This document shows positions 5,579 through 57,047 of a stretch of 64,000 nucleotides of DNA, one piece after another. The first letter of the stretch is position 1; every line of letters begins with the position of its first letter. Made by a program: the position numbers and the translations under genes. The notes beneath the pieces were generated by a model. That model had not been told where the DNA came from. It saw only the letters and a list, made by a program, of their open reading frames with translations, and ran no database searches. The DNA comes from an uncultured Clostridia bacterium (lineage in GTDB: Bacteria > Bacillota > Clostridia > TANB77 > CAG-508), in NCBI GenBank assembly GCA_934169775.1, contig CAKPOI010000001.1, forward strand, positions 16,558 to 80,557, read 5' to 3'.

Positions 5579-5585
5579 TATTTTT

Positions 5586-7541: not shown

Positions 7542-7580
7542 AACTAATGATTTTTCCCGTTTCGAATCATTAGTTTTTTT
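7542..7580 (+). terminator. Rho-independent terminator after the XRE gene.
   Basis: AACTAATGATT...AATCATTAGTT stem followed by T7. Confidence 0.55.
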
Positions 7581-7588
7581 GAATTTTT

Positions 7589-7936: not shown

Positions 7937-8155
7937 TCCCTTCTTTTTGATATTTTAATATAATAATGAATTTTTATTATTTCATACTTATTTTTCTTTT
8001 TTTATTTTGTCCATTTTATTTTTTATAATTCTTTTTATTTTGTTTATTTTATTTTTGTAAAAGATAATTTTTATATTTTTAAAATTTGATACAAAAATAG
8101 CTGTTTTATTAATTCCCAGCTATTTTCTATCGAATATATATACCTCGTTTTCTTT

Positions 8156-10264
8156 CTAATATTTCACAAAAACTTTATTTCCTTTATTTATCTTAATTCT
8201 TTCTGTTGGTGTCTGCTCTTTAATTATTATATTTTCTATATCTAGCCCCTCTTTATTTTCTTCTGTAATTCCCTCAATACTTATTTCTAATCCTACTTCT
8301 TTTAATATTTTCTTTGCTTCTTTTATTGATAATCCTGTTATATTTGGTACACTTACTTCCTCTATTTCTTCAGTTTCATTTCCCTGTACAACTTCTAAAT
8401 ATGGTAATATTTCGCTAAATATCTGACCTCCAACTGGAGCTGCAACTCCCCCTCCTTGGTGTCCTCCTTCTCCTGTTGGATTATATAAAGTAATTAGTAA
8501 AACAACTTGTGGGTCTTCTATTGGTGCTACTCCTAAAAAAGATGTAACATATTTGTTAGTGTTTACACCATCTTCAGAAGTTCCTGTTTTTCCACCAATT
8601 CTATAGCCTGCAACTTTAGCATTTTTTCCTGTTCCTTCAGAAACAACTGATTCCATCATACTTAAAACTTTTTCTGATGTTTCTTTAGAAATTGATTGTG
8701 ATTTTATTTTGACCTCTACATCTCTTTTTTCTCCTGTTTTACTGTCTATTATTTGTTTTACAACTCTAGGTTGAATTAAATTTCCTCCATTTGCAATGCT
8801 TGAAACTGCTGTAACTAATTGAATAGGAGTAATTTCAAACCTTTGGCCAAAACTTATTGTAGCTAATTCTACAGGTCCTGCTTTTTCTTCTTTTAAAAAT
8901 ATGCTTCCTCCTTCTCCTGGTAAGTCTATTCCTGTTTTTTCTAATAATCCGAATTTTTGTAAATAGCTATAATATGTATGAACTCCTAATTTTTGTCCAA
9001 GCCCTATAAATACTGGGTTACATGAGTTCATAAGTCCTTGTCTTAAGCTCTCTGAGCCATGTGGTCTATAATATCTCCAACATTTTATTCTTACTCCAGC
9101 TACTTCTATTCCTCCTGTACAGCAAAATTGTCCTTGTTTATCTATATCTGTAACTAGCCCTTCTTCTATAGATGCTGAGGCTGTTATTGTTTTAAATGTT
9201 GAGCCAGGTTCATATGTGTCTGCAATTGCTCTATTTCTCCAGACTGCTTGTAATTGTTTGGTCTTTTCTCCTTGTTCTAAATTTGGCCATATGCCTTGTA
9301 ATTCTTCTGTATATGCTGAATATGGATCATTTAAATTATATGTTGGATATGTTGCCATTGCCAAAATATCTCCTGTTTTTGGATTCATTGCTACTATGTT
9401 TCCACCATCTGTACACTTATTGTCAATACATGCTTCTTTTAAATATTTTTCTACTATTGATTGAATATTATAATCTATTGATAATACTAAATCATTTCCA
9501 TCTATTGCTGCAATATATTTTTCTCCTTCTTCGCCTATTTCTGCACCTTTAGCATCTGTATGCCTTTTAATCGCTCCTTTGGTTCCTGCTAGTTCTTTTT
9601 CGTATTTTGCTTCTATTCCATCAAGCCCTTGATTGTCACTACCACAAAATCCTATTATTTGTGCAGCTAAGCTGTTATTAGGATAATATCTTTTTGTGTC
9701 TTCATCTATATTTATTCCTGTGGTTATGTTGTTTTGTTCCATCCATTCTCTTAATTGGTCTGTTTTTTCTTTATCTACTTTTTTTACAATTGTTTCTATT
9801 GAACTTCTTTTTGTTACTTTTTTTAATATTTTTTCGTAGTCTAATTCAAATAATTCTGATAATTTTTTGGCTACTAATTCTTTTTTGTCTTTTTCTATAT
9901 TTCCCGGATTTACTGTTACTGTTTCTACTGTACTACTTATTGCTAATATATATTTTCCTGTACTATCATATATTGTTCCTCTTTTTGGATTTATTGCTCT
10001 GTCTAATGTTTGCTGTTCATATGCCATTGATGATAATTCTCCTCCTTGTATTATTTGTATAAATCCTATTCTTCCTATTAAAATTGTAAAAACTAAAAAT
10101 GATGTAAATAATATATTTCTCATTCTTTTTTTGGTAGATATTTCACTTGTTATTGTTTTATTTTTTATTCTTTTTTTTGTTGGTATTTCTCTTGTTTTTT
10201 TGTTTTTTCTTTTTTTGGTAGATACTCTTAATTTTTTGTCTTCTTTTCTTTTATATGTATTCAT
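8156..10264 (-). CDS. Class B penicillin-binding protein (FtsI/PBP2B-like transpeptidase) with a C-terminal PASTA domain.
   Basis: Dimerisation and transpeptidase motifs (STFK, SSN-like, KTGT) plus a PASTA-like C-terminus. Located between ftsL and murE. Has a K-rich N-terminal extension. Confidence 0.85.
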   Translation of the reverse strand: MNTYKRKEDKKLRVSTKKRKNKKTREIPTKKRIKNKTITSEISTKKRMRNILFTSFLVFTILIGRIGFIQIIQGGELSSMAYEQQTLDRAINPKRGTIYDSTGKYILAISSTVETVTVNPGNIEKDKKELVAKKLSELFELDYEKILKKVTKRSSIETIVKKVDKEKTDQLREWMEQNNITTGINIDEDTKRYYPNNSLAAQIIGFCGSDNQGLDGIEAKYEKELAGTKGAIKRHTDAKGAEIGEEGEKYIAAIDGNDLVLSIDYNIQSIVEKYLKEACIDNKCTDGGNIVAMNPKTGDILAMATYPTYNLNDPYSAYTEELQGIWPNLEQGEKTKQLQAVWRNRAIADTYEPGSTFKTITASASIEEGLVTDIDKQGQFCCTGGIEVAGVRIKCWRYYRPHGSESLRQGLMNSCNPVFIGLGQKLGVHTYYSYLQKFGLLEKTGIDLPGEGGSIFLKEEKAGPVELATISFGQRFEITPIQLVTAVSSIANGGNLIQPRVVKQIIDSKTGEKRDVEVKIKSQSISKETSEKVLSMMESVVSEGTGKNAKVAGYRIGGKTGTSEDGVNTNKYVTSFLGVAPIEDPQVVLLITLYNPTGEGGHQGGGVAAPVGGQIFSEILPYLEVVQGNETEEIEEVSVPNITGLSIKEAKKILKEVGLEISIEGITEENKEGLDIENIIIKEQTPTERIKINKGNKVFVKY

Positions 10265-10343
10265 ACAAAAACACCTCTAATAATATCTATTAGAGGCTTG
10301 CTGTTTTCATTACTATGATTTTGTTTGTTGTTTATAATATTTT

Positions 10344-10907
10344 TTATTTATTTGGAAATATCCAATCAGCAATTTTTTGTAACCATGTTTTTTCTTCTTT
10401 TAATACTACTTTTTCAGTTGCTGATTCGACATAATCTTTTTTTGGTAGTGTTACATACACAGTTTGTTTATTAGTTAGTTTTTCCATTCCTAATTTTTCT
10501 TTTGCTTCTTTTTCTATGTTTTTTATATTTAAATTGTTTTCTATATTTATTTCTAATTGTTCATTTTCTTTTTGTATTGTTGCTAATTTTTTCTTTTGTT
10601 CTTGCATTTCATTGAATTTTACTGTTATTTGGGAGTTTTGATAACTAATGGCTAATAAAACTGTAAAAGCTAATAATGCAAACATTGTTAATTTTACATG
10701 TTTTCTTTTTTGTTCTTTTGATACTTTTGGTTGTTGTTTTGGCATTTCTTTTACAACTTTTAACCCAGATTTTTTTCTGCTCTTGTTTTTATTTGGCATT
10801 TGTTCTTCTGTTTGTACTTTTCTTGGGTTAGTATCATATTGATAATAATTTCTTGCCATTATTATTTTTTCCTCCCTTCTTTTGTTTTTATTTTTATAAG
10901 TTTGCAA
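10344..10907 (-). CDS. ftsL: FtsL/DivIC-like septum formation protein.
   Basis: Single TM segment plus coiled coil. Conserved position between rsmH and pbp. Confidence 0.55.
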   Translation of the reverse strand: MQTYKNKNKRREEKIIMARNYYQYDTNPRKVQTEEQMPNKNKSRKKSGLKVVKEMPKQQPKVSKEQKRKHVKLTMFALLAFTVLLAISYQNSQITVKFNEMQEQKKKLATIQKENEQLEINIENNLNIKNIEKEAKEKLGMEKLTNKQTVYVTLPKKDYVESATEKVVLKEEKTWLQKIADWIFPNK

Positions 10908-10985
10908 AGTTTGCGCACAAATACGCAGACTTTAAAATGTTCTAATAAGTGCTAATGTTATTAATGTCCGCTTTTGTTCTTTTCT

Positions 10986-11915
10986 TTAAGCTTTTTCAAA
11001 AATTCTAAGCTTTGCACTTTTACTTCTTGAGTTTTCTTCTTGTTCTTCTTTACTTGCTATTATTGGTTTTTTAGTTATTATTTTTCCCTCTGATTTTGCT
11101 CCACATACACAATATGGTAAATCAGGTGGACATGTGCATTTTCCTTTTGCATCTAACATTGCTTTTTTTACTGCTCTATCTTCTAGTGAATGAAATGTTA
11201 TAACACATAACCTTCCTTGCGAATTTAAACATTTTATGCAATTTAATATGGTACTATATAATGGTTTTATTTCATTATTTACTTCTATTCTAATTGCTTG
11301 AAATGTTCTTTTGGCTGGATGTCCATCATTTTGTTTTGATTTTGGTATTGATTCTTCTATTATTTCTACTAGTTCTTTGGTGGTTTCTATTGGCTTTTCT
11401 TTTCTTTTTTTGCAAATATTATATGCTATTTTTTTAGAAAATCTTTCTTCTCCATATTCGTAAATTATATTACTTAGGTCTTCTTCACTATATTCGTTTA
11501 CTACTTTTTTTGCAGTTAGCTCTTGTGTTTTGTCCATTCTCATATCTAAAATGTTTTCACCTAAATAGCTGAATCCACGATTTCTTTCGTCCAATTGATA
11601 TGATGATACTCCTAAATCTAATAGTATTCCATCTACTCCATCTATATTTTCGTTTTCTAATATACTTATTATATCGTCATGGTTTCCATGTATGTATTTT
11701 ATATTTTTATATTCTTTTAAATTTGCCTTTGCTGCTTGTAGTGCTTCTTGATCCCTGTCTATTCCTATCAATATTCCTGTATTTTTTAAGGCTTTTGCTA
11801 TTTCTTTGCTATGTCCTGCTCCTCCTAATGTTCCATCTACATATATTCCGTTTTGCTTAATTTTTAATCCTTTTATACATTCATCTAACATTACTGGTTT
11901 GTGTTCAAATTTCAA
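10986..11915 (-). CDS. rsmH: RsmH (MraW) 16S rRNA m4C1402 methyltransferase.
   Basis: GTLGGAGHS SAM-binding motif. dcw position. Confidence 0.9.
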   Translation of the reverse strand: MKFEHKPVMLDECIKGLKIKQNGIYVDGTLGGAGHSKEIAKALKNTGILIGIDRDQEALQAAKANLKEYKNIKYIHGNHDDIISILENENIDGVDGILLDLGVSSYQLDERNRGFSYLGENILDMRMDKTQELTAKKVVNEYSEEDLSNIIYEYGEERFSKKIAYNICKKRKEKPIETTKELVEIIEESIPKSKQNDGHPAKRTFQAIRIEVNNEIKPLYSTILNCIKCLNSQGRLCVITFHSLEDRAVKKAMLDAKGKCTCPPDLPYCVCGAKSEGKIITKKPIIASKEEQEENSRSKSAKLRIFEKA

Positions 11916-12261
11916 ATTAATACCTCTTTATTTTTAATTTTTAAGGTCCTCATGCAGCTGGAAATTCCAGCTGCTTTGTCAAAAGTATATTATTAAAACT
12001 TTTGTATTTTTTCGAGTTCTTTTGCAATATCTTCTATTCTTTTGTTTTTTCTTTTGTTGCTTTATCTTTTGTAGTGTATTCTTTAGTTTTATTCTCTTCT
12101 GTAATTTTTTTAATCTTTTGTTTTATTTATCTGATGTGTATTTTTCTTTTGTTTTGATTTCTTTCGTTTTTTTGTCTTTTGCTTAAAATATATATTAATG
12201 AGGATTTGTCTTTTGTCTTTTTTACTTTTTTTCTTTAGTTTTTTATATAAACTTTTTCAAG

Positions 12262-12687
12262 TTATATACCTAAATTTGCCATGTTTTCTGCGATTTCATC
12301 TGCTGATATTTCTTCATCGCATTTTTCCCATGTTTCTTTGTTCCATATTTCTATTCTTGTTCCTACTCCAATTATTATTGCATCTTTTTCTAAGTTTGCT
12401 GCTGTTCTTAAGTTTGTTGGTATTAGGAATCTTCCTTGTTTGTCTATTTCACATTCTGTGGCCCCTGATAAAAAGAATCTTACAAAATTTCTTGCATTTT
12501 TGTCTGATAATGGTAGACTTTTTAGTTTTTCTTCAAAGTTATTCCATTCTGTTTGAGAGAACGCAAATAAGCATCCATCTAAACCTTTTGTTAAGATGAA
12601 CTTGTCCCCGATGTCTTGTCTTAGTTTTGCTGGCATTATTAACCTTCCTTTTGTGTCTAAAGAATGGCTATATTCTCCCATTAACAT
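12262..12687 (-). CDS. mraZ: MraZ transcriptional regulator.
   Basis: Duplicated SpoVT/AbrB-like MraZ domains and the MLMGEY N-terminus. First gene of the dcw cluster. Confidence 0.9.
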
Positions 12688-12702
12688 CTGGTTTCACCTC
12701 TT

Positions 12703-12745
12703 TCCACTTTTCTACCACTTTGTGCCACTTTTTACCACTGCAATT
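12703..12745 (-). promoter_or_regulatory. Putative MraZ operator: four direct AAAGTGG-type repeats at 10-11 bp spacing immediately upstream of the mraZ RBS.
   Basis: Coding strand reads GTGGTAAAAA GTGGCACAAA GTGGTAGAAAA GTGGAAAGAGGTG. CCAC on the plus strand at 12704, 12715, 12725 and 12735. Confidence 0.55.
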
Positions 12746-13065
12746 TTATTGTAATATAACTTTTTTAATTTTGCAAGTGTTTTTCTGAATTTTTATGATT
12801 TTTTTATGTTTTTTTTAAAATTTTTAGCTCTTTACTATTTTTTATCTAAAAAATGCTTTTTTCAATAGAACAAAATTGGACATTAATAACATTCAAATTT
12901 CTAAAATCTCCGTATTTGTTTGTACACGAAATTTGCAAAGCAATTATCGTAGCATTGTTATTTTAATATTTTAGGAAGTTCGAATAGCTTTCCTAGAATA
13001 TTAAAAAGCTCGTAAATTTATGCTTTTATAAAAATATAAATTTGCGAGCTTTATATAACTTATTT

Positions 13066-13833
13066 TTACACTTCTTTTGCTTTTACTATAAATCTTTGCT
13101 TTCCATCATCTGTACATGTTATAAGGGTTATTTCTTTTTTTCCTTTTGTTTTTTGTTCTAAACAACTAATATCTTCTGGCACTACTGTGTATTCATTATA
13201 TATTTCATATGTTACTGCGTTTCCCTCAGTACTTTTTGTATAATCTGTTATTATTATTTTTTCTCCTACTTCAAGTGTTGGAACTTTACTAAAGAATTTT
13301 TGGTTTCTATAGTTGTGTCCTACTATACAGAAATTTCCTTTTTCATTTGGTTCTGGTCCTGCTAATTTGCATGGTGACATTTTTAATAGTTCTTCTGTTT
13401 CTTTTTCTGTTCCTGTTACTCCTTCTATTATTGGATAACTTAAGTTTAATTTTGGGATTTCTATTTTTGCTATTGTATAATAACTATATCCATTTTCTGT
13501 TGTTTCTTTTTTATCTATTAGTGTTTTGTAGTCACTTTCATCTAATGTTTTTACTTTTAAGTCTTCTTGTGCATTGTTTAATACTACTGTTAATACATCG
13601 CTTTGTGCTTTTTCTTTTGCTTTTTCTGCTTCTTCTTGCGTTTCTTTTATATTTGCTAATATTTGTTCAGATACTTGTTCACTTTTATTTCTTTCATAAT
13701 TTGTATATATAAAAATGGTACTTATTATTAATACTAGTATTATTGATATTATAAAATTAATTTTGTATATTTTTTTCTTTCTTTTTAGTTCAGGTGTTAC
13801 ATATAATTTTTCTGTTACTAATATTTGATTCAT
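13066..13833 (-). CDS. Sortase (transpeptidase) with an N-terminal membrane anchor.
   Basis: TLITCTD active-site motif (TLxTC), conserved His, N-terminal TM. Confidence 0.75.
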   Translation of the reverse strand: MNQILVTEKLYVTPELKRKKKIYKINFIISIILVLIISTIFIYTNYERNKSEQVSEQILANIKETQEEAEKAKEKAQSDVLTVVLNNAQEDLKVKTLDESDYKTLIDKKETTENGYSYYTIAKIEIPKLNLSYPIIEGVTGTEKETEELLKMSPCKLAGPEPNEKGNFCIVGHNYRNQKFFSKVPTLEVGEKIIITDYTKSTEGNAVTYEIYNEYTVVPEDISCLEQKTKGKKEITLITCTDDGKQRFIVKAKEV

Positions 13834-13910
13834 TTTAACACCTTCCCTTCTTTTAAATATTATTCTTTCTTTTTTATTATATCATAATAAAAGCTTTTTG
13901 AAAATCTTTT

Positions 13911-14411
13911 TTAAATTAAAATTGATGATATATGAAATACATTAACATTTTCTTTTAAGAATTTTTGTGTTTCTTTTAAAATTTTATGATCATCATCTAG
14001 TAAAATCACTTTATCATATTTGTCTTTTTTTTCTTTCATTTTCTCTGCTTTTACTATATCTCTATTTTCTTTTGAATATTCTTTGTTTTCTTTATTTATT
14101 ATAATCCAATTTTCTTCTTTTATAAATGGTACATATTTTCTTAGCCATTCTTGTTTTTCTTTTAATATTTTTAAACTTTTTGCTAATGTTAATATATATA
14201 AATCTATGTTTGGTATATCATTTATTTCTTTTAATATTTCTATTATGTATTCTATTGGTTCTGCTTTTTGGTATTCTTCTTCCATCTTTTCCTTTACGTT
14301 TCCTTCTGGATAAACTTCATATACAGTTATTGTTCCATCCATATCTATAAACATTGCTACTTTTTTATTTTCTCTGCATATATTTTGTATCTTTTTTATA
14401 AATTTCTTCAT
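13911..14411 (-). CDS. HAD-superfamily hydrolase, likely a 5'(3')-deoxyribonucleotidase-like enzyme.
   Basis: FIDMDGTIT (DxDGT motif I) and LLDDD (motif IV). Confidence 0.5.
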   Translation of the reverse strand: MKKFIKKIQNICRENKKVAMFIDMDGTITVYEVYPEGNVKEKMEEEYQKAEPIEYIIEILKEINDIPNIDLYILTLAKSLKILKEKQEWLRKYVPFIKEENWIIINKENKEYSKENRDIVKAEKMKEKKDKYDKVILLDDDHKILKETQKFLKENVNVFHISSILI

Positions 14412-14469
14412 AACATTCTCCTTTTTTATAAAATGGCACAAAAGTACTAACTTCTGTGCCTTTCTGTTT

Positions 14470-15052
14470 TTATAATGCGTCTGAAATGATTTTATAAATC
14501 ATTTCATTCATTGCTGAGATCTCTAACTCATCTGTTCTTATTAGGCTTTTACGTAAATTTACGTCATTGAAAAAATCACAAAAATACTTGTTGTACTCTT
14601 TTATGTATTCTTCTTTTACGATTTTTCCTTCAGCTCCTCTACGTTTCAAAGCGGTTGTTGGTGAAACTATTAGTCCTAAAAGTAAGTCCGGATTTACATT
14701 TGATAAGCATGTTTTTTTAAAATACTTGTATTCTTCTAAGCTTGCTTTTTTTTTCATAAAAAAACTTCCAAGCATAAAACTTGCTATCGATAATTCCTCT
14801 GTCAATTAGAACCACTTCTGCCTGTGAATAAGTTGCTTTAAATATACCTGCTTGTGTTACAAAGTGCATCCATAAGTTTGCATCAAATGTTCCTTTGGGT
14901 ATTTCGTTTGGCAGCTTTTCAGCGGATTCTTCAAGTATCATTACTGAATGTCCTGCATTTTCAAGCATGTTGGAAACTACTTTGATAGCTGTTGTTTTTC
15001 CAGCTTCTGGTGTTCCCGTAAATTCTACCATAAACGGCTTCTTTTTCCGCAT
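14470..15052 (-). pseudogene. P-loop NTPase (nucleoside/nucleotide kinase-like) split by a -1/+1 frameshift in an A9 homopolymer.
   Basis: Walker A FTGTPEAGKTT. Two overlapping ORFs, 14717..15052 and 14470..14805. Removing one A from the A9 run (plus strand T9 at 14746-14754) gives the continuous reading ...YEKKASLEEYKYF... Confidence 0.5.
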
Positions 15053-15178
15053 AGTTATGCCCTCCTAATTATATATTTTTGTTATTAAAGTATACTATAT
15101 TTTTTAAATTATTGCAATGTTTTTTCTTATTTTTAGAGCTTAGAGCATAACTTTATTTATAGAGTTGCTTTTATTTTT

Positions 15179-15775
15179 TTATATTATTTTCATTTTTACT
15201 TCTTTACCTTTAAATGCAAATACCATTTTTGTTATGTTTGTATATCCTCTTTCTTGTAAATCTTCTTCGTATTTTCTTTCTTCTTTTTTGTCTTGGACAT
15301 CAAAGTCTTTTATAATTTTATCCATTTCTTTTGCTGTTATGCCAAAGTCGTCACTAAATTCGTCATCTAATACTGTATATACATCAAAGTTGTTTGCTCC
15401 ACTAAATATGCTTTCTTTTGCTACTCTTGATACTCCTGTTAATACTGTTTTTTCTAAGCATAGATTATCCTTGAATGTTGTTCCATAAAATATTTTGAAG
15501 AATTTTATGGCTTCTTGATAATATCCTTCTATATATGCATTTTGTAATGGTACATCATATTCGTTTAAAAATAGCATTACTGGCTTATCATAATATCTAT
15601 TTAAATATTTACTTAGTGTTTTTATACTGTTTCTTAATACTATTTCATCTTCTTTATATGATAATATTTCTTTTATTTGTTCTTTTTCAAATGGATATTG
15701 TTTTGTCTATATAATAATTTTTTCTTATCCTTATCCCTCTAAAATCGCTTTCTCCTATTCCTATTCCGTACATTT
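15179..15775 (-). pseudogene. Internally deleted remnant of the AAA-ATPase/PD-(D/E)XK gene found intact at 52951..54627.
   Basis: N- and C-terminal segments are about 85-90% identical in nucleotide sequence to the 52951-54627 copy, with the middle roughly 1.1 kb missing. C-terminal peptide RKYEEDLQERGYTNITKMVFAFKGKEVKM is shared. Confidence 0.7.
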
Positions 15776-15778
15776 ATT

Positions 15779-16696
15779 TCATTTTCCTTTCATTTCATCT
15801 GCAATTTTTGCAAATTCTTCTAAGCTTAGTTCTTCTGGTCTTATATTTTCTTTTATATTTAGATTCTTAAAAACTTTTGCTGCTTGTTCTTTGTTTGTGA
15901 AAATTTTAGTATTCACTAATGAATTTAATAATGTTTTTCTTCTTTGTGTAAAGGCATTTTTTATAATTTTAAACATTGTTTTTTCATCTATGACTTTTAT
16001 TGGTGGTTCTTTTCTTATTTTAAATTGTATTACTTCTGAGGTTACTTCTGGTGCTGGTATAAAGCTTTCTGGTTTTACTTCTAATATTTCTTCCGCTTCT
16101 GCATAGTAGAATACACTATATGTGATTGCTCCTGCTTTTTTGGTTCCTGGTATTGCTGTTAATCTATCTGCTACTTCTTTTTGTACCATTACAGTTATTG
16201 TTTCTAAATCTAATTTTTCTTCTAATAATTTCATTATTATTGGTGTTGTTATATAATAAGGTAAATTTGCTACAATTTTTACTTTTTTTATTTCATTATC
16301 TTTTTGTTTTTCTGTTTCTATTAGATTTTTTAAGTCTACTTTTAAAACATCTTCATGTATTATTTCAAAATTTTTATATAATGCAAATCTTTCTTTTAAA
16401 ATTGTTATCATTCTTGTGTCTAATTCTATACATATTACTTTTTTTGCCTTTTCTAGTAATTCTTTTGTTAGAGTTCCTAGGCCTGGTCCTATTTCTATTA
16501 TTAAATCTTTTTCAGTTATTTGGCTGCTTTCTATTATATTATTTACTGTTTCATCTTCTACTAAAAAGTTTTGTCCTAATCTTTTGTCAGCTTTTATGTT
16601 ATATTTATTCATTATAAATTTTGTTTCTTCTAATATTGTTGGCATAATATTTTTTCCTCCTTTATTGGATGACTTTTTATTGTTTTTCCTTTGCAT
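15779..16696 (-). CDS. rsmA: RsmA/KsgA 16S rRNA dimethyladenosine transferase.
   Basis: LGQNFLVDE and GPGLGTLT motifs. Confidence 0.9.
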   Translation of the reverse strand: MQRKNNKKSSNKGGKNIMPTILEETKFIMNKYNIKADKRLGQNFLVEDETVNNIIESSQITEKDLIIEIGPGLGTLTKELLEKAKKVICIELDTRMITILKERFALYKNFEIIHEDVLKVDLKNLIETEKQKDNEIKKVKIVANLPYYITTPIIMKLLEEKLDLETITVMVQKEVADRLTAIPGTKKAGAITYSVFYYAEAEEILEVKPESFIPAPEVTSEVIQFKIRKEPPIKVIDEKTMFKIIKNAFTQRRKTLLNSLVNTKIFTNKEQAAKVFKNLNIKENIRPEELSLEEFAKIADEMKGK

Positions 16697-33902: not shown

Positions 33903-34367
33903 GTGATTAAAATGGATATGGATTCAAATAAACCTCATTGCCCTATTTTAGATGTTGATGGCGTTATATCAGGAGGTAAACAATTTGATTTAGATATAAT
34001 TTTACAAGAAGATAATCGTGATGTTATATATGGTGTTGTTAAAAATTGTTTTAAAGAACCTGTTTCTAATGCCGTTGTAAAATTAGTTGAAGTTGTATAT
34101 GACTGTGGTAAAGAAGATAGAAGACCTATTGGCCATACTTTTACAGATAAAGATGGTGAATTTGTTTTTGGACCTCTTTGCCCTGGTAGAAAATATGCTA
34201 TTCAAATTTGGGCTAATGATACTAAAAAAATCAAGATTTGTGCAAAATGTTTCCATGAAGGAAAATGTTTAAAAGGTGAAAAACACGATAAATGTGATTG
34301 TTTTTTAAATGATGATAAACATGAAAAATGTGATAAAGACGAAAGATGTTGTGAAGATAAACAATAA
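33903..34367 (+). CDS. Hypothetical small protein with a carboxypeptidase-regulatory/transthyretin-like beta-sandwich motif and a Cys/His/Lys-rich tail.
   Basis: VVKLVEV...TFTDKDGEFVFGPLCPGRKYAIQI, followed by CxKC...KCDC...KCDKDERCC. Confidence 0.3.
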   Translation: MIKMDMDSNKPHCPILDVDGVISGGKQFDLDIILQEDNRDVIYGVVKNCFKEPVSNAVVKLVEVVYDCGKEDRRPIGHTFTDKDGEFVFGPLCPGRKYAIQIWANDTKKIKICAKCFHEGKCLKGEKHDKCDCFLNDDKHEKCDKDERCCEDKQ

Positions 34368-34380
34368 TAATTAATGATTT

Positions 34381-34583
34381 GAGGAGAGATACTTTGTACA
34401 TTGAGAAATATATTTTTTTGTGATTGAAGCAATATTAGAAATTCTTAAATAATTTAATGGAAAGAGTTCACGTCGAGCGAAGCGAGGACTAAGTGGAAGG
34501 GTGCCATTAAATTATTTTAAAATTTCTTAAATTGCGTAATGAACCTAAAAATATATTTCTCAATGTACAAAGTATCTCTCCTC
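34381..34583. repeat. 203-bp element with perfect 35-bp terminal inverted repeats (GAGGAGAGATACTTTGTACATTGAGAAATATATTT) and a GC-rich central core shared with the 42.6 kb element.
   Basis: Left end 34381-34415 is the exact reverse complement of 34549-34583. Core is GGAAAGAGTTCACGTCGAGCGAAGCGAGGACTAAGTGGAAGG. Confidence 0.6.
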
Positions 34584-34765
34584 ATTTTATAATATATATT
34601 GAATTACCAATTGCTTAAAGTTCTCATTACTTTTTTTCCTTTTTTCATTATTCTTTTCTTATTTTTGTTTAACATATCACTTTCTGAATACATCATTAGA
34701 ACTCCTGTTGCAAGTAGACCTCCTATTACTAATCCTTTAGCAAATTTCATATTATCACTCCTTTT

Positions 34766-35991: not shown

Positions 35992-36711
35992 TTATTTTTT
36001 CTTGTTTTGTATTTGTTCTGCTTTTTGTGGATTTATTTTTAATGTGTCATTTTCTCCTGGGATATAATATCTTGTATTTTTTATTTCTTCTGGTAAATAT
36101 TGTTGTTTTACATAGTTTCCTGGATAATCATGTGGATACAAATATCCTTGATTGTATCCTAGTGCTTCCATATTTTTTACTGGTGCATTTCTTATATGCA
36201 TTGGTACTTCCCCAGTTTCTTTGTTTTTTACATCTTCAAGTGCTTGATTTATTCCCATATATGTTGAATTTGATTTTGGCGAATTTGCTACATATACTGC
36301 CGCTTCTGCCAATATTATTCTTGCTTCTGGCATTCCTACCATATGTACTGCTTGCATTGCACTATTTGCTATTACCAATGCTTCTGGATTTGCTAGTCCT
36401 ACATCTTCAGATGCACTTATAACTATTCTTCTCGCTAAAAACATTGGATCTTCTCCTCCTTTAATTGCTCTAGCTAAATAAAATAATGCTGCATCTGCAT
36501 CTGAGCCTCTCATGGATTTTATAAATGCACTTATATTGTCATAGTGTGAATCTCCATTTTTATCAAATACTGCTTTTCTTTCTTGTATACTATTTTTTAT
36601 AACCTCATCAGTAATGTGAATATATCCGTCTGAGTCCATCTTTGTAGTTAATACTGCTACCTCTAATCCATTTAATGCAGTACGGACATCTCCATTACTT
36701 ATTGAGGCCAA
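35992..36711 (-). CDS. rarA: RarA/MgsA replication-associated recombination protein, C-terminal part. Frameshifted relative to 36731..37282.
   Basis: GDVRTALNGLE and MgsA C-terminal motifs. The ORF track used a TTG start; translation is continuous with the upstream part if one base is removed near 36751-36757. Confidence 0.7.
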   Translation of the reverse strand: MASISNGDVRTALNGLEVAVLTTKMDSDGYIHITDEVIKNSIQERKAVFDKNGDSHYDNISAFIKSMRGSDADAALFYLARAIKGGEDPMFLARRIVISASEDVGLANPEALVIANSAMQAVHMVGMPEARIILAEAAVYVANSPKSNSTYMGINQALEDVKNKETGEVPMHIRNAPVKNMEALGYNQGYLYPHDYPGNYVKQQYLPEEIKNTRYYIPGENDTLKINPQKAEQIQNKKK

Positions 36712-36730
36712 TTTTTTTAATGTTTCTTCC

Positions 36731-37282
36731 TCAATTTTTATATTGTATTCTCCGTAAGCCTTCCTTACTTTTTAATGCATTTTTCAAAACTGTGTATATA
36801 TTTTCTGTTGTTAATGGCTCTAATTTTATTACCATTGATCTTGATATTAAAGCTTTATTTACTTCAAAATATGGATTTTCTGTTGTTGCTCCTATTAATA
36901 TTATTGTTCCATTTTCTACATATGGTAATAATGCATCTTGTTGTAATTTATTAAATCTATGAATCTCGTCTATAAATAATATGCTTTTTCCTATTGGATT
37001 TAACATAAAGTTTTTTGTTTCTTCTATTACTCTTTTTATATCTGAAACTCCTGCTGTTACTGCATTTATTTTATAAAATTTATATTTTGTTGTTTCACTT
37101 ATTACTCTTGCTAATGATGTTTTGCCACATCCTGGAGGTCCAAATAATATAATACTTGATAGCCTGTCTGCTTTTATTGTTCTATATAAAAGTTTGCCTT
37201 CTCCTATTACATGTTCTTGTCCTACATATTCTTCTAGTGTTTTTGGTCTAACTCTATATGCTAGCGGCTCATTTGAATTCAT
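36731..37282 (-). CDS. rarA: RarA/MgsA AAA+ ATPase, N-terminal part.
   Basis: GPPGCGKTSLA Walker A, DEIHRFNK, IGATTENP. Confidence 0.75.
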   Translation of the reverse strand: MNSNEPLAYRVRPKTLEEYVGQEHVIGEGKLLYRTIKADRLSSIILFGPPGCGKTSLARVISETTKYKFYKINAVTAGVSDIKRVIEETKNFMLNPIGKSILFIDEIHRFNKLQQDALLPYVENGTIILIGATTENPYFEVNKALISRSMVIKLEPLTTENIYTVLKNALKSKEGLRRIQYKN

Positions 37283-42480: not shown

Positions 42481-42483
42481 CTG

Positions 42484-42784
42484 ATGTTTTTGGGGACGGA
42501 CTCAAAAAACATCACTATTACATATCATTAAAAATAATAAATGTTATATGGTTTAATAATTTTCTCGGTTCAATACACAAACTAAAAATTTCTAAAATAA
42601 AATAATGTAATCCTTCAGCTTAGTCCTCACTTCGTTCGACGTGAAGCTCTTCCATCATTTTATTTAAGAAATTCTAAGATTGTTCCAATCACATTCGAAA
42701 ATTATTCTTCCATATAACATTTATTATTTTTTATATAATTTGAAAAGATATATGGTGTTTTTTGAGTCCGTCCCCAAAAACATC
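42484..42784. mobile_element. MITE-like non-autonomous element. Two inverted copies of the GC-rich repeat (about 30 bp, GATGTTTTTGGGGACGGACTCAAAAAACATC / its reverse complement) flank 240 bp with no ORF that carries the GC-rich core shared with 34381..34583.
   Basis: Inverted termini at 42484-42513 and 42754-42784. The internal CTTAGTCCTCACTTCGTTCGACGTGAAGCTCTT is about 90% identical to the reverse complement of 34454-34486. Confidence 0.5.
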
Positions 42785-47315: not shown

Positions 47316-47525
47316 TTTCTTTCTCCTTATTTTATTATATTCATTTTTTGAAAGTACTTTTCTTAATATATCATATTTTTCTTATTTTGTCAAATTTTTA
47401 CTGAAGTCAAATGTAGAATCGTTTAATGTGAATTGAAAAAATGTAGTAAATTTTCATTCATTTTACTACATTTTTCGATCTTTATTTTTTGTTATTGATT
47501 AACATACTAATATTAATCTTAATAT

Positions 47526-47585
47526 GGTGCTTTTTGAGTCCGGCCCCAAAAGCATTAATCTTATAAGTCCGGTCCCTAAAGCATC
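47526..47585. repeat. Two tandem GC-rich repeat copies (GAGTCCGGCCCCAAAAGCATTA / AAGTCCGGTCCCTAAAGCATC).
   Basis: Seen directly. Intergenic, between the NlpC/P60 gene and ppaC. Confidence 0.65.
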
Positions 47586-52918: not shown

Positions 52919-52950
52919 TTTTATTTAGCTCTAGTGTATTTTATTTTTTA

Positions 52951-54627
52951 TTATATTAATTGCATTTTTACTTCTTTTCCTTTAAATGCAAATACCATTT
53001 TTGTTATGTTTGTATATCCTTTTTCTTGTAGATCTTCTTCATATTTTCTTTCTTCTATTTGCTTTTTGGCATTTTCTATTGTGTCTTCTATATCTTTTTC
53101 TCTGTCCTCTTTGTATACTTTAAATTCCATTATAAAGCTGTTTCCGTTTTTGTCTTTTGGTTCTAACATTATATCGTATCTTCCATATCCTGATTCTCTA
53201 TTGGATTTTACATAGTAGCTGTCTTTTAAGCCTACTAACATTCCTAATACAAATGCATGGTAAAAGTTTTCTGCTGTGTTTTCGCCTACATCCATATAAC
53301 TGAACATTTGAGTTACTAGTACCTTGAATTTTGTTTCAAATTCATCTAAATTTAATGTTATTAAGTCTTTTAATATTGTATTTAAATTGTTTCCTATTAC
53401 TTTATCATTAAACCATTCTCTTATTATGGTTTGAAATAAGAATTTTATTTCATAATTTGGTATTTTTACTTTGTATATTCCTGTTGCTAAATCTACTACT
53501 TCTGTTACTTTTAAATATCCTGTTCCTAATAATAGTCCCCAGATATTTTCTTCGTTTTGCTCTATTCCTACTATTACTGTGTCTAAATTTATTGGTACTT
53601 CTATTTCTTCATCTCGTAATAATTGCTCTATTTTTTCTTTTACTGTTACACTATTTTTTAGTATTAATTTTATTAAGTCATTTGAACTTGTGTTTACCCA
53701 ATATGGCATTAATTTTCTGTCTGTTAAATAGTTTAATATGCTCCATGGATTATATATTCCTTCTGTGTTTCCTATTGTGTATCCATCATACCACTTTTTA
53801 ATTTCGTCTTTTTCGTCTTGTATTTCAAAATCTTGTATAATTTTATCCATTTCTTTTTCTGTTATTCCAAAGTCATCACTGAATTCGTCATCTAATACTG
53901 TATATACTTTAAAGTTATTTGCTCCACTAAATATGCTTTCTTTTGCTACTCTTGATACTCCTGTTAATACTGTTTTTTCTAAATATGGATTGTCCTTAAA
54001 TGTCGTTCCATAAAATATTTTGAAAAATGATATTCCTTTTTCATAATAACTATTTACATATGCTGTTTGTAAAGGTACATCATATTCATCTAAAAATAAC
54101 ATTACTGGTTTATCATAATAGCGTGATAAATATTCGCTCAAATCTTTTACACTATTTTTTAAGGTTACTTCATCTTCTCTAAAATATAATATATCATTTA
54201 TTTTTTCTTTTTCAAATGGATATATCTTATCACTATCTAACAAGTACATATGTTCTTTATATGTATTTAACATTGCTGTTTTCATATTTAGTATCATGTT
54301 TTCATATGTGCTTTCGTTTACATCTTTTAATGTTATGTATATACATGGATAATATCCTAGCTTTGATGTGTATTTTTCATCTTGTTCCATTATTTTTAGG
54401 CCTTCAAATATTTCTTTACTGTCTTTTTTTGTACAGTCAAAATAGTATTTTAACATACTCATGTTTAGCGTTTTTCCGAATCTTCTTGGTCTTGTTACTA
54501 ATATTACTGATGCCTCATTGTCTATTATATCTTTTATATACATGGTTTTGTCTATATAATAGTTTTTTCTTATTCTTAATGCTTTAAAATCACTTTGCCC
54601 TATTCCTATTCCATACATATACCTCAC
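52951..54627 (-). CDS. AAA-ATPase-like / PD-(D/E)XK nuclease family protein (DUF1703-type), 558 aa. Intact copy of the remnant at 15179..15775.
   Basis: N-terminal YGIGIGQSDFKALR...VTRPRRFGKTLNMSML (AAA-ATPase-like). C-terminal nuclease-like region (FDIM...EFKV). Confidence 0.65.
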   Translation of the reverse strand: MRYMYGIGIGQSDFKALRIRKNYYIDKTMYIKDIIDNEASVILVTRPRRFGKTLNMSMLKYYFDCTKKDSKEIFEGLKIMEQDEKYTSKLGYYPCIYITLKDVNESTYENMILNMKTAMLNTYKEHMYLLDSDKIYPFEKEKINDILYFREDEVTLKNSVKDLSEYLSRYYDKPVMLFLDEYDVPLQTAYVNSYYEKGISFFKIFYGTTFKDNPYLEKTVLTGVSRVAKESIFSGANNFKVYTVLDDEFSDDFGITEKEMDKIIQDFEIQDEKDEIKKWYDGYTIGNTEGIYNPWSILNYLTDRKLMPYWVNTSSNDLIKLILKNSVTVKEKIEQLLRDEEIEVPINLDTVIVGIEQNEENIWGLLLGTGYLKVTEVVDLATGIYKVKIPNYEIKFLFQTIIREWFNDKVIGNNLNTILKDLITLNLDEFETKFKVLVTQMFSYMDVGENTAENFYHAFVLGMLVGLKDSYYVKSNRESGYGRYDIMLEPKDKNGNSFIMEFKVYKEDREKDIEDTIENAKKQIEERKYEEDLQEKGYTNITKMVFAFKGKEVKMQLI

Positions 54628-54727
54628 ACTCCTTGGTTTTCATGTTTACATTGTACTATATTTTTTTTATTTTGTCTATGTTTTTATTTCTACATTTTTC
54701 GACAGTCTTATGTTTTTTGAGTTATTT

Positions 54728-54976: not shown

Positions 54977-55181
54977 TTCTTTTTCCTTTTTTTATTTACT
55001 TGCGTAAAATAAATACATTCAATTTCTTTACTAATATTTATTTTACTGATTCTTTTTTACCTATTCTTATTATTTTTTCTATTTTTATATATTTAATAAT
55101 TTCGGAAGGAATAAATCTCTTTAATACTAATACCTTTACTGTATATATTCCGTAAAATATATAATCTGAAATTTGTATTAG

Positions 55182-55315
55182 AGTGCTGGACGGAAACTAA
55201 TATTGTTGTTGCTGTTAGTCGTGCTATTGTTATTACGGTTAGAGGCTGGATTATTAGAGCCTGTATTGTTGTAATTGCCTCCCCTGTTGGCACAAGGATT
55301 GCTACTGTTGGAAGT
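55182..55315 (-). other. DGR template repeat (TR), 134 bp, located 68 bp downstream of the RT gene.
   Basis: 134-bp homology to 57061-57194 (VR). All 16 differences lie at TR adenines (sense strand). The TR is rich in AAC/AAT codons. Homology ends at ...AGTGCTGG. Confidence 0.85.
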
Positions 55316-55383
55316 TTTCGATTTATCCCTAATTTTCTTTTTTTGTTTATATTGTAATATTAAATTAAGTTATTTTATATTTT

Positions 55384-56169
55384 TTATTCTATGTAAAATA
55401 ATTTGTTTGTTAAATTGTATACATTTGCTATTTGTATATATCCCATATGTCCTGCTAAATATTTTTTTGCTTCTTGTTTTGTTTTTACAAATATTATGCT
55501 GTCGTCCAAATATCTTTTATAATATTTTATTTTTAACTTATGCTTTATGTATTGGTCTACTTCATTTAAATATATGTTTGCAAACATTTGTGATGTGTAA
55601 TTTCCTATTTCTAATCCTTTTGGTCTTTTCTGTGCATATATTATTTCTTCTAATAACCATATTACATCTTTGTCTTTTATTTTTCTTTTTAATATTTTTA
55701 GTAATGTTTGTTTGTCTATATTATCAAAATATTTTGATATATCCATTTTTAGTATATAATATTCTCCCCATTTAGCTTTACAGTGTTTCATTGTTTTTTG
55801 TGTGTCTAAACATGCTTTATGCATTCCTCTGTTTTTTATACATGCATATGTGGTTTTTATAAATTGTGGTACATATGCTGGTTCTAAAAATTTGTCTACT
55901 ACCCATCTGTGTACTATTCTGTCTATATATCTTGATTTTTCTATTTTTCTTACTTTTGGTTCTGTTACATAAAATTCTGTATATCCTCCATGCCTGTATG
56001 TTTTGGTTTTTAGTTTTTCTAATAGCCACATTATATATTCTTCTTGTTTTAAATTAAATTCTATTATTTCTTTTCTATAGCCTTTTCCTTTTTGTGATTC
56101 TTTATGTGCAAGCATTAGTTTTTCGTATGTTAGGTTTTCTTCATATTTGTTTCGTATCGTTTTTGGCAT
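55384..56169 (-). CDS. Diversity-generating retroelement reverse transcriptase (261 aa; short, thumb region reduced).
   Basis: RT motifs 1-5 with the DGR-specific IGNYTSQ motif 4 ([I/L/V]GxxxSQ instead of QGxxxSP) and a YLDD catalytic box. The N-terminus aligns with Bordetella bRT-like RTs. Confidence 0.8.
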   Translation of the reverse strand: MPKTIRNKYEENLTYEKLMLAHKESQKGKGYRKEIIEFNLKQEEYIMWLLEKLKTKTYRHGGYTEFYVTEPKVRKIEKSRYIDRIVHRWVVDKFLEPAYVPQFIKTTYACIKNRGMHKACLDTQKTMKHCKAKWGEYYILKMDISKYFDNIDKQTLLKILKRKIKDKDVIWLLEEIIYAQKRPKGLEIGNYTSQMFANIYLNEVDQYIKHKLKIKYYKRYLDDSIIFVKTKQEAKKYLAGHMGYIQIANVYNLTNKLFYIE

Positions 56170-56530
56170 AGTATTTTATTAGTCCTCCTAATATTTTTCC
56201 TATTTCATATATTTGCTCCATTGCTATTCTGAATTTCTTTTCATCTATCCATTGGTTCTTTTTCATTATTCTTAAATAAATTCTTTGTGTATTTAGTTCT
56301 GCATCTATATGGTTTAATGTTTCTATTATTTGACTTTTTTCTCCTTTACCTATTTTGTTTATATACATTATTTTTCTTATCATTTGATACATACTTTGTT
56401 TATATTCGTTTCCTATACTAAATTTTTCTATTCTTGGAAGTTTTATTATTACCTGTAATATGTATTCTATATATTTTTCTGCCTTTGGTATTAATTGTAG
56501 TTTATTTTCTTTTTCACTCTTTTTATCCAT
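56141..56530 (-). CDS. avd: Avd-like accessory variability determinant (129-aa basic helical-bundle protein); overlaps the RT start.
   Basis: Size, basic helical character, and its position immediately upstream of and overlapping the DGR RT. Confidence 0.55.
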   Translation of the reverse strand: MDKKSEKENKLQLIPKAEKYIEYILQVIIKLPRIEKFSIGNEYKQSMYQMIRKIMYINKIGKGEKSQIIETLNHIDAELNTQRIYLRIMKKNQWIDEKKFRIAMEQIYEIGKILGGLIKYYAKNDTKQI

Positions 56531-56779
56531 TTAATCGTTTTCCTTTTTATTGCTTCTATATTCTTTTTCTTCTAATTTTTTCATATATGTTTCTATTGAA
56601 TTTACTGGTATTCCTATTTTACATACTTCTGGTTCCATGCATAATAACTTTAACCCTAATATTTCGTTTAATTTTACTGCGTCTTTTCCTCTCGCTAAAT
56701 AAAATGCTCCTGCATTTGTCAATATTATGTATCCTTTATTTTTTTCTTGTAATAATTCTAACATTTTACTAAATCCCAT
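56531..56779 (-). CDS. Small protein resembling MutS mismatch-binding domain I (82 aa); first gene of the avd-RT operon.
   Basis: AGAFYLARGKDAVKLNEILGLKL...IGIPVNSIETYMKKL aligns with MutS domain I ([23 protein letters not shown]...AGIPYHAVENYLAKL). The mismatch-contacting Glu is replaced by Leu. Confidence 0.35.
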   Translation of the reverse strand: MGFSKMLELLQEKNKGYIILTNAGAFYLARGKDAVKLNEILGLKLLCMEPEVCKIGIPVNSIETYMKKLEEKEYRSNKKEND

Positions 56780-56843
56780 TTTCTACCTCCTGCTTTGTTT
56801 TATTTTTAAAGCTGGCGCGGTTCGTTTTTTTGCCTGAAAGCTC

Positions 56844-56880
56844 AAAAAAAACGCTACCGCCAGGTAGCGCTACCTCCAGG
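56844..56880 (-). terminator. Rho-independent terminator about 170 bp downstream of the DGR target gene.
   Basis: Minus strand reads CGCTACC-TGGC-GGTAGCG followed by T8. Confidence 0.55.
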
Positions 56881-57047
56881 TGAAAAATTGTATTTCTGGA
56901 TTTACCAAGAACAAGTTCTTGATAAATTCTGTCCTTCAATTTTCCACCTGCCTCTAGCGTATTTCATTCGCTAGAGGGTACTTATTATTCAATTTACCGG
57001 CTATAAAATGGCTCTCTCGCCTATTTTATAATCACGGGCTTTAGCTT

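What the first reader, a model, noticed from the sequence alone, without database searches (positions are those of the whole stretch)
34381..34583. 203-bp element with perfect 35-bp terminal inverted repeats and a conserved GC-rich core
34381-34415 is the exact reverse complement of 34549-34583, a perfect 35-bp inverted repeat in AT-rich DNA. Nested inner inverted repeats (TTAAATAATTTAATGG / CCATTAAATTATTTTAA) surround a GC-rich core (GAGTTCACGTCGAGCGAAGCGAGGACTAAG). That core is about 90% identical to the core of the 42.6 kb MITE, with paired substitutions. The element could be a MITE or a large structured ncRNA/terminator between convergent genes. The TTGAGAAATA sequence near its ends also recurs at the ends of the 1476-1603 element.
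Basis: seen in the sequence. Interest (0 to 1): 0.55.

Follow-up and report, generated by a model that had tools for sequence, protein, structure and literature searches.

The report
Palindromic mini-transposon copy that flips
The 203-bp palindrome is a real but fairly ordinary thing: one worn copy of a previously undescribed family of small non-coding mobile DNA repeats (MITEs) found in uncultured human-gut Clostridia, and its middle part is turned around in some strains.

Summary
34380-34417 is the exact reverse complement of 34547-34584 (38 bp). The whole 34380-34584 stretch folds into one long hairpin with a GC-rich tip.

The window is a bacterial chromosome from an uncultured, 27%-GC human-gut Clostridia species. 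It is not a phage.

- **Copies.** The GC-rich tip and inner arms recur at 42527-42734 in the window. They also occur about 80 times in about 24 related genomes and more than 120 times in gut metagenomes.
- **Relatives are true MITEs.** They are about 236 or 470 bp long, with terminal repeats GTTACAATTCACAG and 8-bp target duplications.
- **Copy A is a short, degenerate form.** It lacks those ends and has no duplication. It sits where sister species carry a simple terminator hairpin.
- **Flipping.** The interiors of copies A and B are inverted in some strains of the same species. Linked variants suggest rare recombination between the arms, not a fast switch.
- **Pairing.** The arms covary strongly, and the tip hairpin is kept by isosteric replacements.
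- **Known families.** There is no Rfam match.

Verdict: a new member of a known kind. The role of the tip hairpin is unknown.

The parts
34380..34417 (.). Left arm of the perfect 38-bp inverted repeat. It is one crossover site of the in-place inversion. The outermost bases, TGAGGAGAGA, may be a host terminator stem.
   Evidence: Direct reading and blast of the arm against itself. Comparison with the terminator stems of sister species.
34547..34584 (.). Right arm of the perfect 38-bp inverted repeat. It is followed by TTTTATAAT, a U-run for + strand transcripts.
   Evidence: The inverted alleles carry a 1-nt T insertion in this arm.
34418..34546 (+). Interior segment, found in both orientations among strains. 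It holds the conserved family module, from GTGATTGAAGCAAT to GCGTAATGAACC.
   Evidence: Window orientation: L001, L003, L006, L007. Inverted: L002, L004, L008, L009. The module is over 90% identical to copies in other species.
34445..34460 (+). Inner stem, 5' half (TTAAATAATTTAATGG). It pairs with 34504-34520.
   Evidence: helix 3, 97.4% of cells paired.
34504..34520 (+). Inner stem, 3' half (CCATTAAATTATTTTAA).
34464..34493 (+). GC-rich asymmetric tip of the hairpin. Predicted pairing: TTCAC/GTGGA, then GTC/GAC, then tandem G.A mismatches, then GC/GC closing a GAA loop. GCGAAGC is at 34477-34483.
   Evidence: Structure-preserving variants are seen.
33903..34367 (+). Upstream convergent gene: a 154-aa Cys/His-rich protein with a weak CarboxypepD_reg-like hit. 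Its stop codon lies 12 nt before the repeat.
34604..34750 (-). Downstream convergent ORF (48 aa), the last ORF of a TauE-like gene string. Its stop codon lies 19 nt after the repeat.
   Evidence: The same ORF is conserved in sister species.
42527..42734 (-). Copy B of the same family, with its tip at 42618-42648. It has its own 38-nt arms (89% complementary), whose sequence differs from the arms of copy A.
   Evidence: There are 14 B-type copies in the related genome HGM13660.
42483..42514 (.). Left copy of a 32-nt hairpin repeat (loop GGGGACGGACTC). Together with 42753-42784 it brackets copy B and is the crossover site of the inversion at locus B.
   Evidence: (I16, 97% complementary).
42753..42784 (.). 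Right copy of the 32-nt hairpin repeat, in inverted orientation.

Best explanation
The element is a short, degenerate copy of a non-coding, palindromic miniature transposable element (MITE) family that populates a clade of low-GC uncultured gut Clostridia.

**Shown**
- The conserved inner module and GC-rich tip are dispersed in many copies.
- Full-length relatives carry 14-nt terminal repeats (GTTACAATTCACAG) and 8-bp target-site duplications. They were therefore moved by a transposase supplied in trans.
- Copy A is absent from the same intergenic spot in sister species, which carry a plain terminator hairpin there.
- The arms of copies A and B have recombined at least once, so the interior exists in both orientations within the species.

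**Inferred**
- The 38-bp perfect arms of copy A are locus-specific. They arose in one of two ways. Either the element inserted into, or next to, the loop of the old terminator hairpin, or the arms were made perfect by arm-to-arm templated repair (quasipalindrome template switching or gene conversion).
- In its present place the giant hairpin followed by TTTT most likely serves as the transcription stop, or as an RNase III-sensitive 3' end, for the convergent genes.
- The inversion is a by-product of the palindrome and is close to neutral.
- The tip hairpin is kept as a structure. It probably matters for the element in a single-stranded state. What it binds is unknown.
For: **Multicopy**
- The core pattern has 80 hits in about 24 related low-GC genomes, against 8 chance hits in high-GC genomes.

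**Transposon ends**
- Elements of about 470 bp share more than 92% identity within a genome and end in GTTACAATTCACAG / CTGTGAATTGTAAC.
- Of 40 non-redundant bounded copies, 10 have 8/8 and 10 have 7/8 identical flanking 8-mers.
- A 115-bp element with an unrelated interior uses the same ends.

**Insertion pattern**
- Copies are never inside ORFs. They occur in tandem, divergent and convergent contexts, in either orientation.
- Sister species have only 16-90 nt with a simple terminator at the orthologous site of copy A.
- One strain (L007) lacks copy B.

**Inversion**
- Inversion is seen at locus A, at locus B, and between orthologous loci L026 and L062.
- All four inverted A alleles share a 1-nt insertion, and three of the four share a flanking SNP. 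This points to few inversion events.

**Negative results that fit**
- No Rfam family matches.
- Promoter-like sites are no more frequent than in shuffles.

**Precedent in other MITEs**
- The definition of a MITE, in-place inversion of Correia elements, and repeats inserting into one another are all documented (PMC10969869; PMC2649163).
Against: - Copy A itself has neither the family's terminal repeats (no match with up to 2 mismatches anywhere in the window) nor a target duplication. The flanking 8-mers are TAATGATT and TTTTATAA.
- No cognate transposase was found. About 40 window ORFs were scanned and gave no DDE transposase and no serine or tyrosine recombinase. The genome-wide search could not be repeated.
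- The tip hairpin is preserved by isosteric changes: tandem G.A replaced by Watson-Crick pairs, and G-C replaced by A-T. G.T mismatches outnumber A.C about 80 to 13 on one strand. Both hint at a strand-specific single-stranded function that a plain cut-and-paste MITE does not need.
- Copy B is older than a species split. It sits at the same site in HGM13660, which is 84% identical in DNA. The repeat can therefore persist for a long time, which could mean the host makes use of it.
- The terminator role is inferred only from position and shape. The terminator scan found nothing, because the stem exceeds its limits.
Confidence: 0.7

Rival explanations
1. The conserved module is a structured non-coding RNA gene, or an RNA-level cis element, of a new family that has been spread by MITE carriers. 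The long stem and tip hairpin are kept by selection on the RNA.
For: - 96.7% of cells are paired against 81.5% in shuffles. 31 of 47 pairs show changes on both sides. Slid controls give about 47%.
- G.U cells number about 80 against about 13 A.C on the core-sense strand.
- Tip hairpin variants keep the helix: GAGC-GAA-GCGAG, GAGC-TTTA-GCTC, or a GAGA loop.
- Two blocks are conserved but not complementary: GAATGTGATTGG and GTATTGAACCGAG.
Against: - There is no Rfam match, even at E = 10.
- Orientation relative to neighbouring genes is not fixed.
- No promoter or terminator signal exceeds chance.
- Both orientations are tolerated at the same locus.
- The tip is deleted in about 7 of 120 copies.
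- Paired changes in DNA quasipalindromes arise by template switching without selection (PMC7202029).
- The G.U excess rests on 3-5 positions inherited by subfamilies.
Confidence: 0.12
2. The element is a phase-variation switch (an inverton). A site-specific recombinase flips the segment between the 38-bp repeats to turn a neighbouring function on or off.
For: - Both orientations exist in the species at loci A and B, and they assort independently, with all four combinations seen.
- The size of the segment (129 bp) and of the repeats resembles known small invertible switches (own knowledge, e.g. the cwpV and flgB switches of C. difficile).
Against: - The repeats at A, at B and at L026/L062 share no sequence, so no single recombinase site is apparent.
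- Orientation is linked to neighbouring variants, so flips are few.
- The segment lies at the 3' ends of convergent genes, not upstream of a gene.
- Promoter-like sites do not exceed chance.
- No recombinase was found among about 40 scanned ORFs.
- Both orientations fold equally well.
Confidence: 0.05
3. The element acts as single-stranded DNA. Either it is moved like REPINs or IS200/IS605 elements, by a tyrosine HUH transposase that recognises a hairpin, or its tip (the ultra-stable GCGAAGC DNA mini-hairpin) is a priming or protein-loading signal on the lagging strand.
For: - d(GCGAAGC) is a known, extraordinarily stable DNA mini-hairpin found at single-strand initiation sites (PMC13037366).
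- The whole element is a hairpin.
- There is a strand bias in tolerated mismatches.
- The 32-nt hairpin repeats that flank copy B resemble REPs in their placement.
Against: - Relatives have terminal inverted repeats and 8-bp target duplications. HUH/Y1 transposition does not produce these (own knowledge; REPIN description in PMC3116915).
- The most frequent tip variant in metagenomes (GAGC-TTTA-GCTC) lacks the GNA mini-hairpin.
- No Y1 transposase was seen in the window.
Confidence: 0.08

Closest known systems
Correia repeat-enclosed elements (CREE/NEMIS) of Neisseria
   Same: - Both are small (about 100-150 bp), non-coding, multicopy and intergenic.
- Both have inverted repeats around a conserved core.
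- Both form long RNA hairpins.
- Both can invert in place and sit next to gene ends (PMC2649163; PMC10969869).
   Different: - The sequence and the host phylum are unrelated.
- Correia elements duplicate TA, whereas this family duplicates 8 bp.
- Correia promoters, IHF binding and RNase III cleavage are experimentally shown. Nothing is shown here.
- This family is palindromic over its whole length (up to 470 bp) and has a GC-rich structured tip.
REPINs (REP doublets forming hairpins) mobilised by RAYT transposases
   Same: - Both are long hairpin-forming, non-autonomous repeats that persist in a lineage.
- In both, pairing is kept by paired changes.
- Both are found at gene ends (PMC3116915, PMC3337134).
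   Different: - REPINs have no terminal inverted repeats of the transposon kind and make no target duplication.
- In REPINs the conserved parts are the two flanking REPs, not the tip.
- A single-copy RAYT gene defines the REPIN system, and none was seen here.
Pneumococcal small repeats (BOX, RUP, SPRITE)
   Same: - Both occur in Firmicutes as small, hairpin-forming intergenic repeats.
- They cluster and insert into one another.
- SPRITE looks like a terminator (PMC10969869; PMC3049150).
   Different: There is no sequence relation. RUP duplicates TA, and BOX is modular rather than palindromic.
Invertible DNA switches (invertons) of gut bacteria
   Same: In both, a short segment bracketed by inverted repeats is found in both orientations in natural populations.
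   Different: - Known switches carry a promoter or a leader and are flipped by a dedicated recombinase at conserved sites.
- Here the repeats differ from locus to locus.
- Here the position is a 3' intergenic region.
- Here orientation behaves like an inherited polymorphism.

Membership tests
Prokaryotic MITE (definition in PMC10969869) | Length below about 500 bp with no coding capacity | tested here: met
   Copy A is 205 bp (34380-34584). Relatives are about 236 and 470 bp. Only short spurious ORFs overlap it.
Prokaryotic MITE (definition in PMC10969869) | Terminal inverted repeats shared with other copies (transposase binding ends) | tested here: not met
   This concerns copy A. Its 38-bp arms are unique to the locus. 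The family ends GTTACAATTCACAG are absent from the window. The feature is met in relatives.
Prokaryotic MITE (definition in PMC10969869) | Flanking direct repeats (target-site duplication) | tested here: not met
   - **Copy A:** flanks TAATGATT / TTTTATAA, with no duplication.
- **Copy B:** only an imperfect 6-8 bp repeat.
- **Relatives:** 20 of 40 have at least 7/8 identical 8-mers.

The review notes that duplications fade with age.
Prokaryotic MITE (definition in PMC10969869) | Many dispersed copies, AT-rich, in intergenic DNA | tested here: met
Prokaryotic MITE (definition in PMC10969869) | Presence/absence at orthologous sites | tested here: met
   - **Copy A** is absent in sister species L099-L108.
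- **Copy B** is absent in strain L007. This is probably a secondary deletion, because B is present at the same site in HGM13660.
Prokaryotic MITE (definition in PMC10969869) | A related autonomous IS that supplies the transposase | not testable with these tools
   None was found in the window or in the loci held.
REPIN/RAYT | Transposition without target duplication, and an associated Y1 (RAYT) gene | tested here: not met
   8-bp duplications are seen in relatives. No Y1 transposase is present among the scanned window ORFs.
Inverton (phase-variable invertible switch) | Both orientations of a repeat-bracketed segment | tested here: met
Inverton (phase-variable invertible switch) | Frequent reversible switching within a clone, a dedicated recombinase, and a promoter or leader inside | tested here: inconclusive
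   - Orientation is linked to neighbouring variants.
- No recombinase is found in the window.
- Promoter-like sites are at the chance level.
- Read-level data are not available.
Any Rfam RNA family | Covariance-model match | tested here: not met
   - Nothing reaches a gathering score in the window.
- Only noise appears at E up to 10 in 34300-34660.
- Nothing matches in 10 loci of relatives.
Intrinsic (Rho-independent) terminator | Stable hairpin directly followed by a U-run at a gene's 3' end | tested here: inconclusive
   The hairpin ends at 34584 and is followed by TTTTATAAT. Sister species have canonical terminators at this spot. The consensus scan cannot score so long a stem, and there are no transcript data.

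The most novel reading that the evidence does not exclude
The conserved roughly 130-nt module with its structured GC-rich tip may be a functional single-stranded RNA or DNA element of a new class. It would be recognised by an unknown protein and would spread through gut Clostridia by riding inside several different palindromic carriers: the GTTACAATTCACAG-ended MITEs, the B-type ends, and the hairpin doublets. Its in-place flipping would then decide which of two convergent transcripts carries the active strand.
Probability: 0.12. Interest if true: 0.6.

Novelty: new member of a known kind. Interest (0 to 1): 0.33.

Why it matters
- **For annotation.** It shows that long perfect palindromes in these uncultured gut Clostridia belong to a repeat family. 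That family breaks assemblies: many copies sit at contig ends. It replaces ordinary terminators and creates orientation polymorphisms that could be mistaken for phase switches.
- **For mobile-element biology.** It adds a Firmicutes family with three features: whole-length palindromy, a structurally conserved tip, and documented nesting and flipping.
- **If the tip is functional.** If the tip proves to bind a protein or to act as RNA, the family would be a natural set of hundreds of variants for studying that interaction.

Tried and rejected
- **Phage origin.** Rejected: there is no blastn match in the phage collection and no core match in viral contigs. The genes are chromosomal housekeeping genes.
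- **Known RNA family.** Rejected.
- **Promoter or terminator consensus inside the element.** Nothing exceeds chance.
- **A shared recombinase site at the inversion borders of A, B and L026/L062.** The repeats are unrelated in sequence.
- **Fast phase variation.** Not supported by the linked variants.
- **Kinship of copy A's outer arms with another repeat family.** Only chance 13-16-mers were found. The shared TTGAGAAATA with the 1476-1603 element is too weak to count.
- **General targeting of hairpin loops.** True for some insertions (L043, and perhaps A and L012) but not for most.
- **Solo terminal repeats as ends of a transposase gene.** They abut ordinary genes.
- **K-turn or sarcin-ricin reading of the tip.** Considered by eye, but the registers do not fit. 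It was not tested further.

Full report
**What is in the sequence**

The stretch 34380-34417 is the exact reverse complement of 34547-34584. The complementarity continues inward, imperfectly, to 34460/34504. It encloses an asymmetric GC-rich tip at 34464-34493.

Either strand folds into a single long hairpin: -95.6 kcal/mol for the + strand and -87.7 for the - strand, with z about -15 against shuffles.

A second, diverged copy lies at 42527-42734 on the other strand. Its inner arms and tip are 81-90% identical to copy A. Its outer arms differ in sequence but are again self-complementary. The only two substitutions in the tip are the paired change GCGAAGC to ACGAAGT.

**What the window is**

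It is not a phage. The genes are a bacterial cell-division/wall (dcw) cluster, ClpC, ComEC, PgsA, RuvA, GatAB and similar, in 27%-GC DNA.

The exact PgsA protein is encoded on human-gut metagenome contigs. L001 is 100% identical to the window. Nine other strains are 97.5-99.6% identical.

The element lies between the stop codons of two convergent ORFs, 33903-34367 (+) and 34604-34750 (-).

**It is a repeat family**

A scan of one genome per species with the tip pattern CACGTCGANCGAAGNGAGGAC gave 88 hits. Eighty are in about 24 low-GC MAGs labelled uncultured Clostridium or Clostridia (CAG:575, 26_22, 27_14, UMGS1516, HGM13660 and others), with up to 14 copies per genome. Eight are chance hits in high-GC genomes.

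The viral collection and the phage database have none. Rfam has no match in the window, in the element at E up to 10, or in ten loci of relatives.

**Relatives are bona fide MITEs**

- In several genomes the unit is a roughly 470-bp imperfect palindrome, more than 92% identical among copies. It ends in GTTACAATTCACAG...CTGTGAATTGTAAC.
- A form of about 236 bp has the same ends.
- Of 40 non-redundant bounded copies, the 8-mers flanking the ends are identical in 10 and differ at one position in another 10. This is far above chance for AT-rich 8-mers. Insertion therefore duplicates 8 bp.
- A 115-bp element with an unrelated interior uses the same ends, as expected if one transposase serves several passengers.
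- Copies never interrupt long ORFs. They occur between tandem (31), divergent (12) and convergent (6) neighbours, in either orientation.
- These features match the published definition of prokaryotic MITEs (PMC10969869).
- No transposase gene was found in the DNA held.

**Where copy A fits**

Its inner 135 nt are over 90% identical to copies in other species. It lacks the GTTACAATTCACAG ends and has no target duplication. Its outer arms occur nowhere else in the sequences held.

At the orthologous site, sister species have only 16-90 nt, holding an ordinary terminator hairpin:

| Locus | Relation to the window | Intergenic content |
|---|---|---|
| L106-L108 | flanking protein 92% identical | AGGGTATCT-GATT-AGATACCCT |
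| L099/L100 | flanking protein 85% identical | GCGGAGA-N12-TCTCCGC followed by T6 |
| L101, L102, L104 | further relatives | similar terminator hairpins |

.

Copy A is therefore a derived insertion in the lineage of the window. The outermost bases of its arms (GAGGAGAGA / TCTCTCCTC, followed by TTTT) occupy the place of the old terminator stem.

Two routes to the present perfect 38-bp arms are compatible with the data:
- insertion into a terminator loop, which is clearly the case for L043, where the duplicated 8-mer is the loop of AGAGG-CAAACTGC-CCTCT;
A second example is L012, whose flanks are reverse complements for at least 12 nt beyond the transposon ends.

Template switching in quasipalindromes is an established mutational process (PMC7202029).

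**Flipping**

At locus A, the interior 34418-34546 has the window orientation in L001, L003, L006 and L007. It is exactly inverted in L002, L004, L008 and L009.

At locus B, the whole segment between two inverted 32-nt hairpin repeats (42483-42514 and 42753-42784) is inverted in L002, L003, L006 and L009. It is missing in L007.

All four combinations of A and B orientation occur. A third case is the orthologous pair L026/L062, where the inner part is flipped but the outermost roughly 50 nt are not.

The assemblies used k-mers longer than the repeats, so these orientations are read-supported.

However, all four inverted A alleles share a 1-nt insertion in the right arm, and three of them share a flanking SNP. 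The two B orientations differ by several substitutions. The crossover repeats at the three loci have no sequence in common.

This pattern fits rare recombination between the arms followed by inheritance and strain-to-strain recombination. It does not fit a recombinase-driven phase switch. In-place inversion is already documented for Correia elements (PMC10969869).

Copy B sits at the same site in HGM13660, whose DNA is only 84% identical there. B therefore predates that split, and its absence in L007 is most simply a later deletion between the AACATA direct repeats.

**Structure and what it may mean**

In an alignment of 66 distinct copies, 96.7% of cells in the consensus hairpin are standard pairs, against 81.5% in shuffles and about 47% when partners are slid. 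In 31 of 47 pairs both sides have changed.

The tip is kept as a shape rather than as a sequence:
- G-C is swapped for A-T in the mini-hairpin many times, within several subfamilies.
- In the arm-anchored metagenome sample, about 70 copies replace the tandem G.A mismatches and GAA loop by Watson-Crick pairs and a TTTA loop (GAGC-TTTA-GCTC).
- About 40 copies keep the GAA form.
- Seven copies have lost the tip hairpin and cap the lower stem with GAGA or TTTA.

G.T mismatches (about 80 cells) outnumber A.C (about 13) on the core-sense strand, although 3-5 inherited positions carry most of that excess.

Together this argues that a single-stranded form of one strand matters. It does not say whether that form is RNA or DNA. 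d(GCGAAGC) is a known ultra-stable DNA mini-hairpin (PMC13037366), but the commonest variant lacks it. Templated mutation in palindromes can also produce paired changes without selection. I therefore treat a function for the tip as open.

**Most likely working**

- Shown: family membership, mobility of relatives, derived presence at this locus, and inversion by the arms.
- Inferred: in its present place the hairpin plus U-run substitutes for the terminator that sister species have. Its 38-bp perfect duplex would be an RNase III substrate, as in Correia elements (PMC2649163). The inversion would have little consequence, because both orientations fold almost equally well.

**Verdict**

The finding is a real feature, correctly described and correctly suspected to be a MITE. 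It is a new family of a well-known kind. Three points of modest extra interest are the whole-length palindromy with a structurally conserved tip, the repeated nesting at the centre of other palindromes, and the orientation polymorphism.

Noticed in passing
window 55004-58361 (- strand); also 5586-6815: This looks like a diversity-generating retroelement. Its parts are:
- RT-14 RNA (Rfam RF02921, 79 bits) at 55004-55183;
- a reverse transcriptase ORF at 55384-56169;
- a bAvd ORF at 56141-56530;
- a 140-nt repeat pair, 55179-55318 against 57058-57197 (87% identical), at the 3' end of the ORF 57048-58361.

A paralogous ORF, 5586-6815, carries a third and weaker copy at 5593-5732.
   Followed up: partly
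window 1406-1466, 7583-7650, 24671-24706, 42483-42514, 42753-42784, 47520-47555: A family of roughly 32-nt hairpins has an AT-rich stem and a conserved 12-nt loop, GGGGACGG(A/C)C(TC/GC). Most sit right after stop codons, alone or in doublets. The family is also common in HGM13660, where pairs of them bracket 9 of 14 B-type elements. It is not a canonical terminator, because no U-run follows, and it has no Rfam match.
   Followed up: partly
window 1476-1603: This is another long palindromic element, with a different GC-rich tip (GGCAAGGGCGCATACGTAGTGTATGTAACCGCG). A copy that is 94.6% identical occurs in another species (L089:7211-7320), so it represents a separate repeat family.
   Followed up: partly
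window 35992-37282; 18044-19563: The MgsA-like ATPase is split into two ORFs in different frames (36731-37282 and 35992-36711). The split is present in all strains and in some sister species, whereas other sister species have one ORF of 410-414 aa. The ComM/Mg-chelatase-like gene is likewise split, with about 300 nt between the parts.
   Followed up: no
L005 (ERZ28593521 scaffold_4186), whole locus: This contig is a mirror image of itself around the ClpC gene: 8735-15567 equals the reverse complement of 1914-8746. It is most likely a fold-back assembly artefact.
   Followed up: no
window 52951-54627 and 15179-15577: A 558-aa ORF with AAA-ATPase_like and PDDEXK_9 domains has a truncated paralogue that is 83% identical in DNA (15152-15798 against 52924-54643). 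An ORF of the PD-(D/E)XK 'transposase' family (PDDEXK_2) lies at 22077-22715.
   Followed up: no
L109:1948-2243 (GCA_037193195.1), orthologue of the copy A locus: In this sister species the same convergent intergenic spot holds about 296 nt made of three other, unrelated palindromes. The site therefore seems to collect hairpin-forming DNA repeatedly.
   Followed up: no
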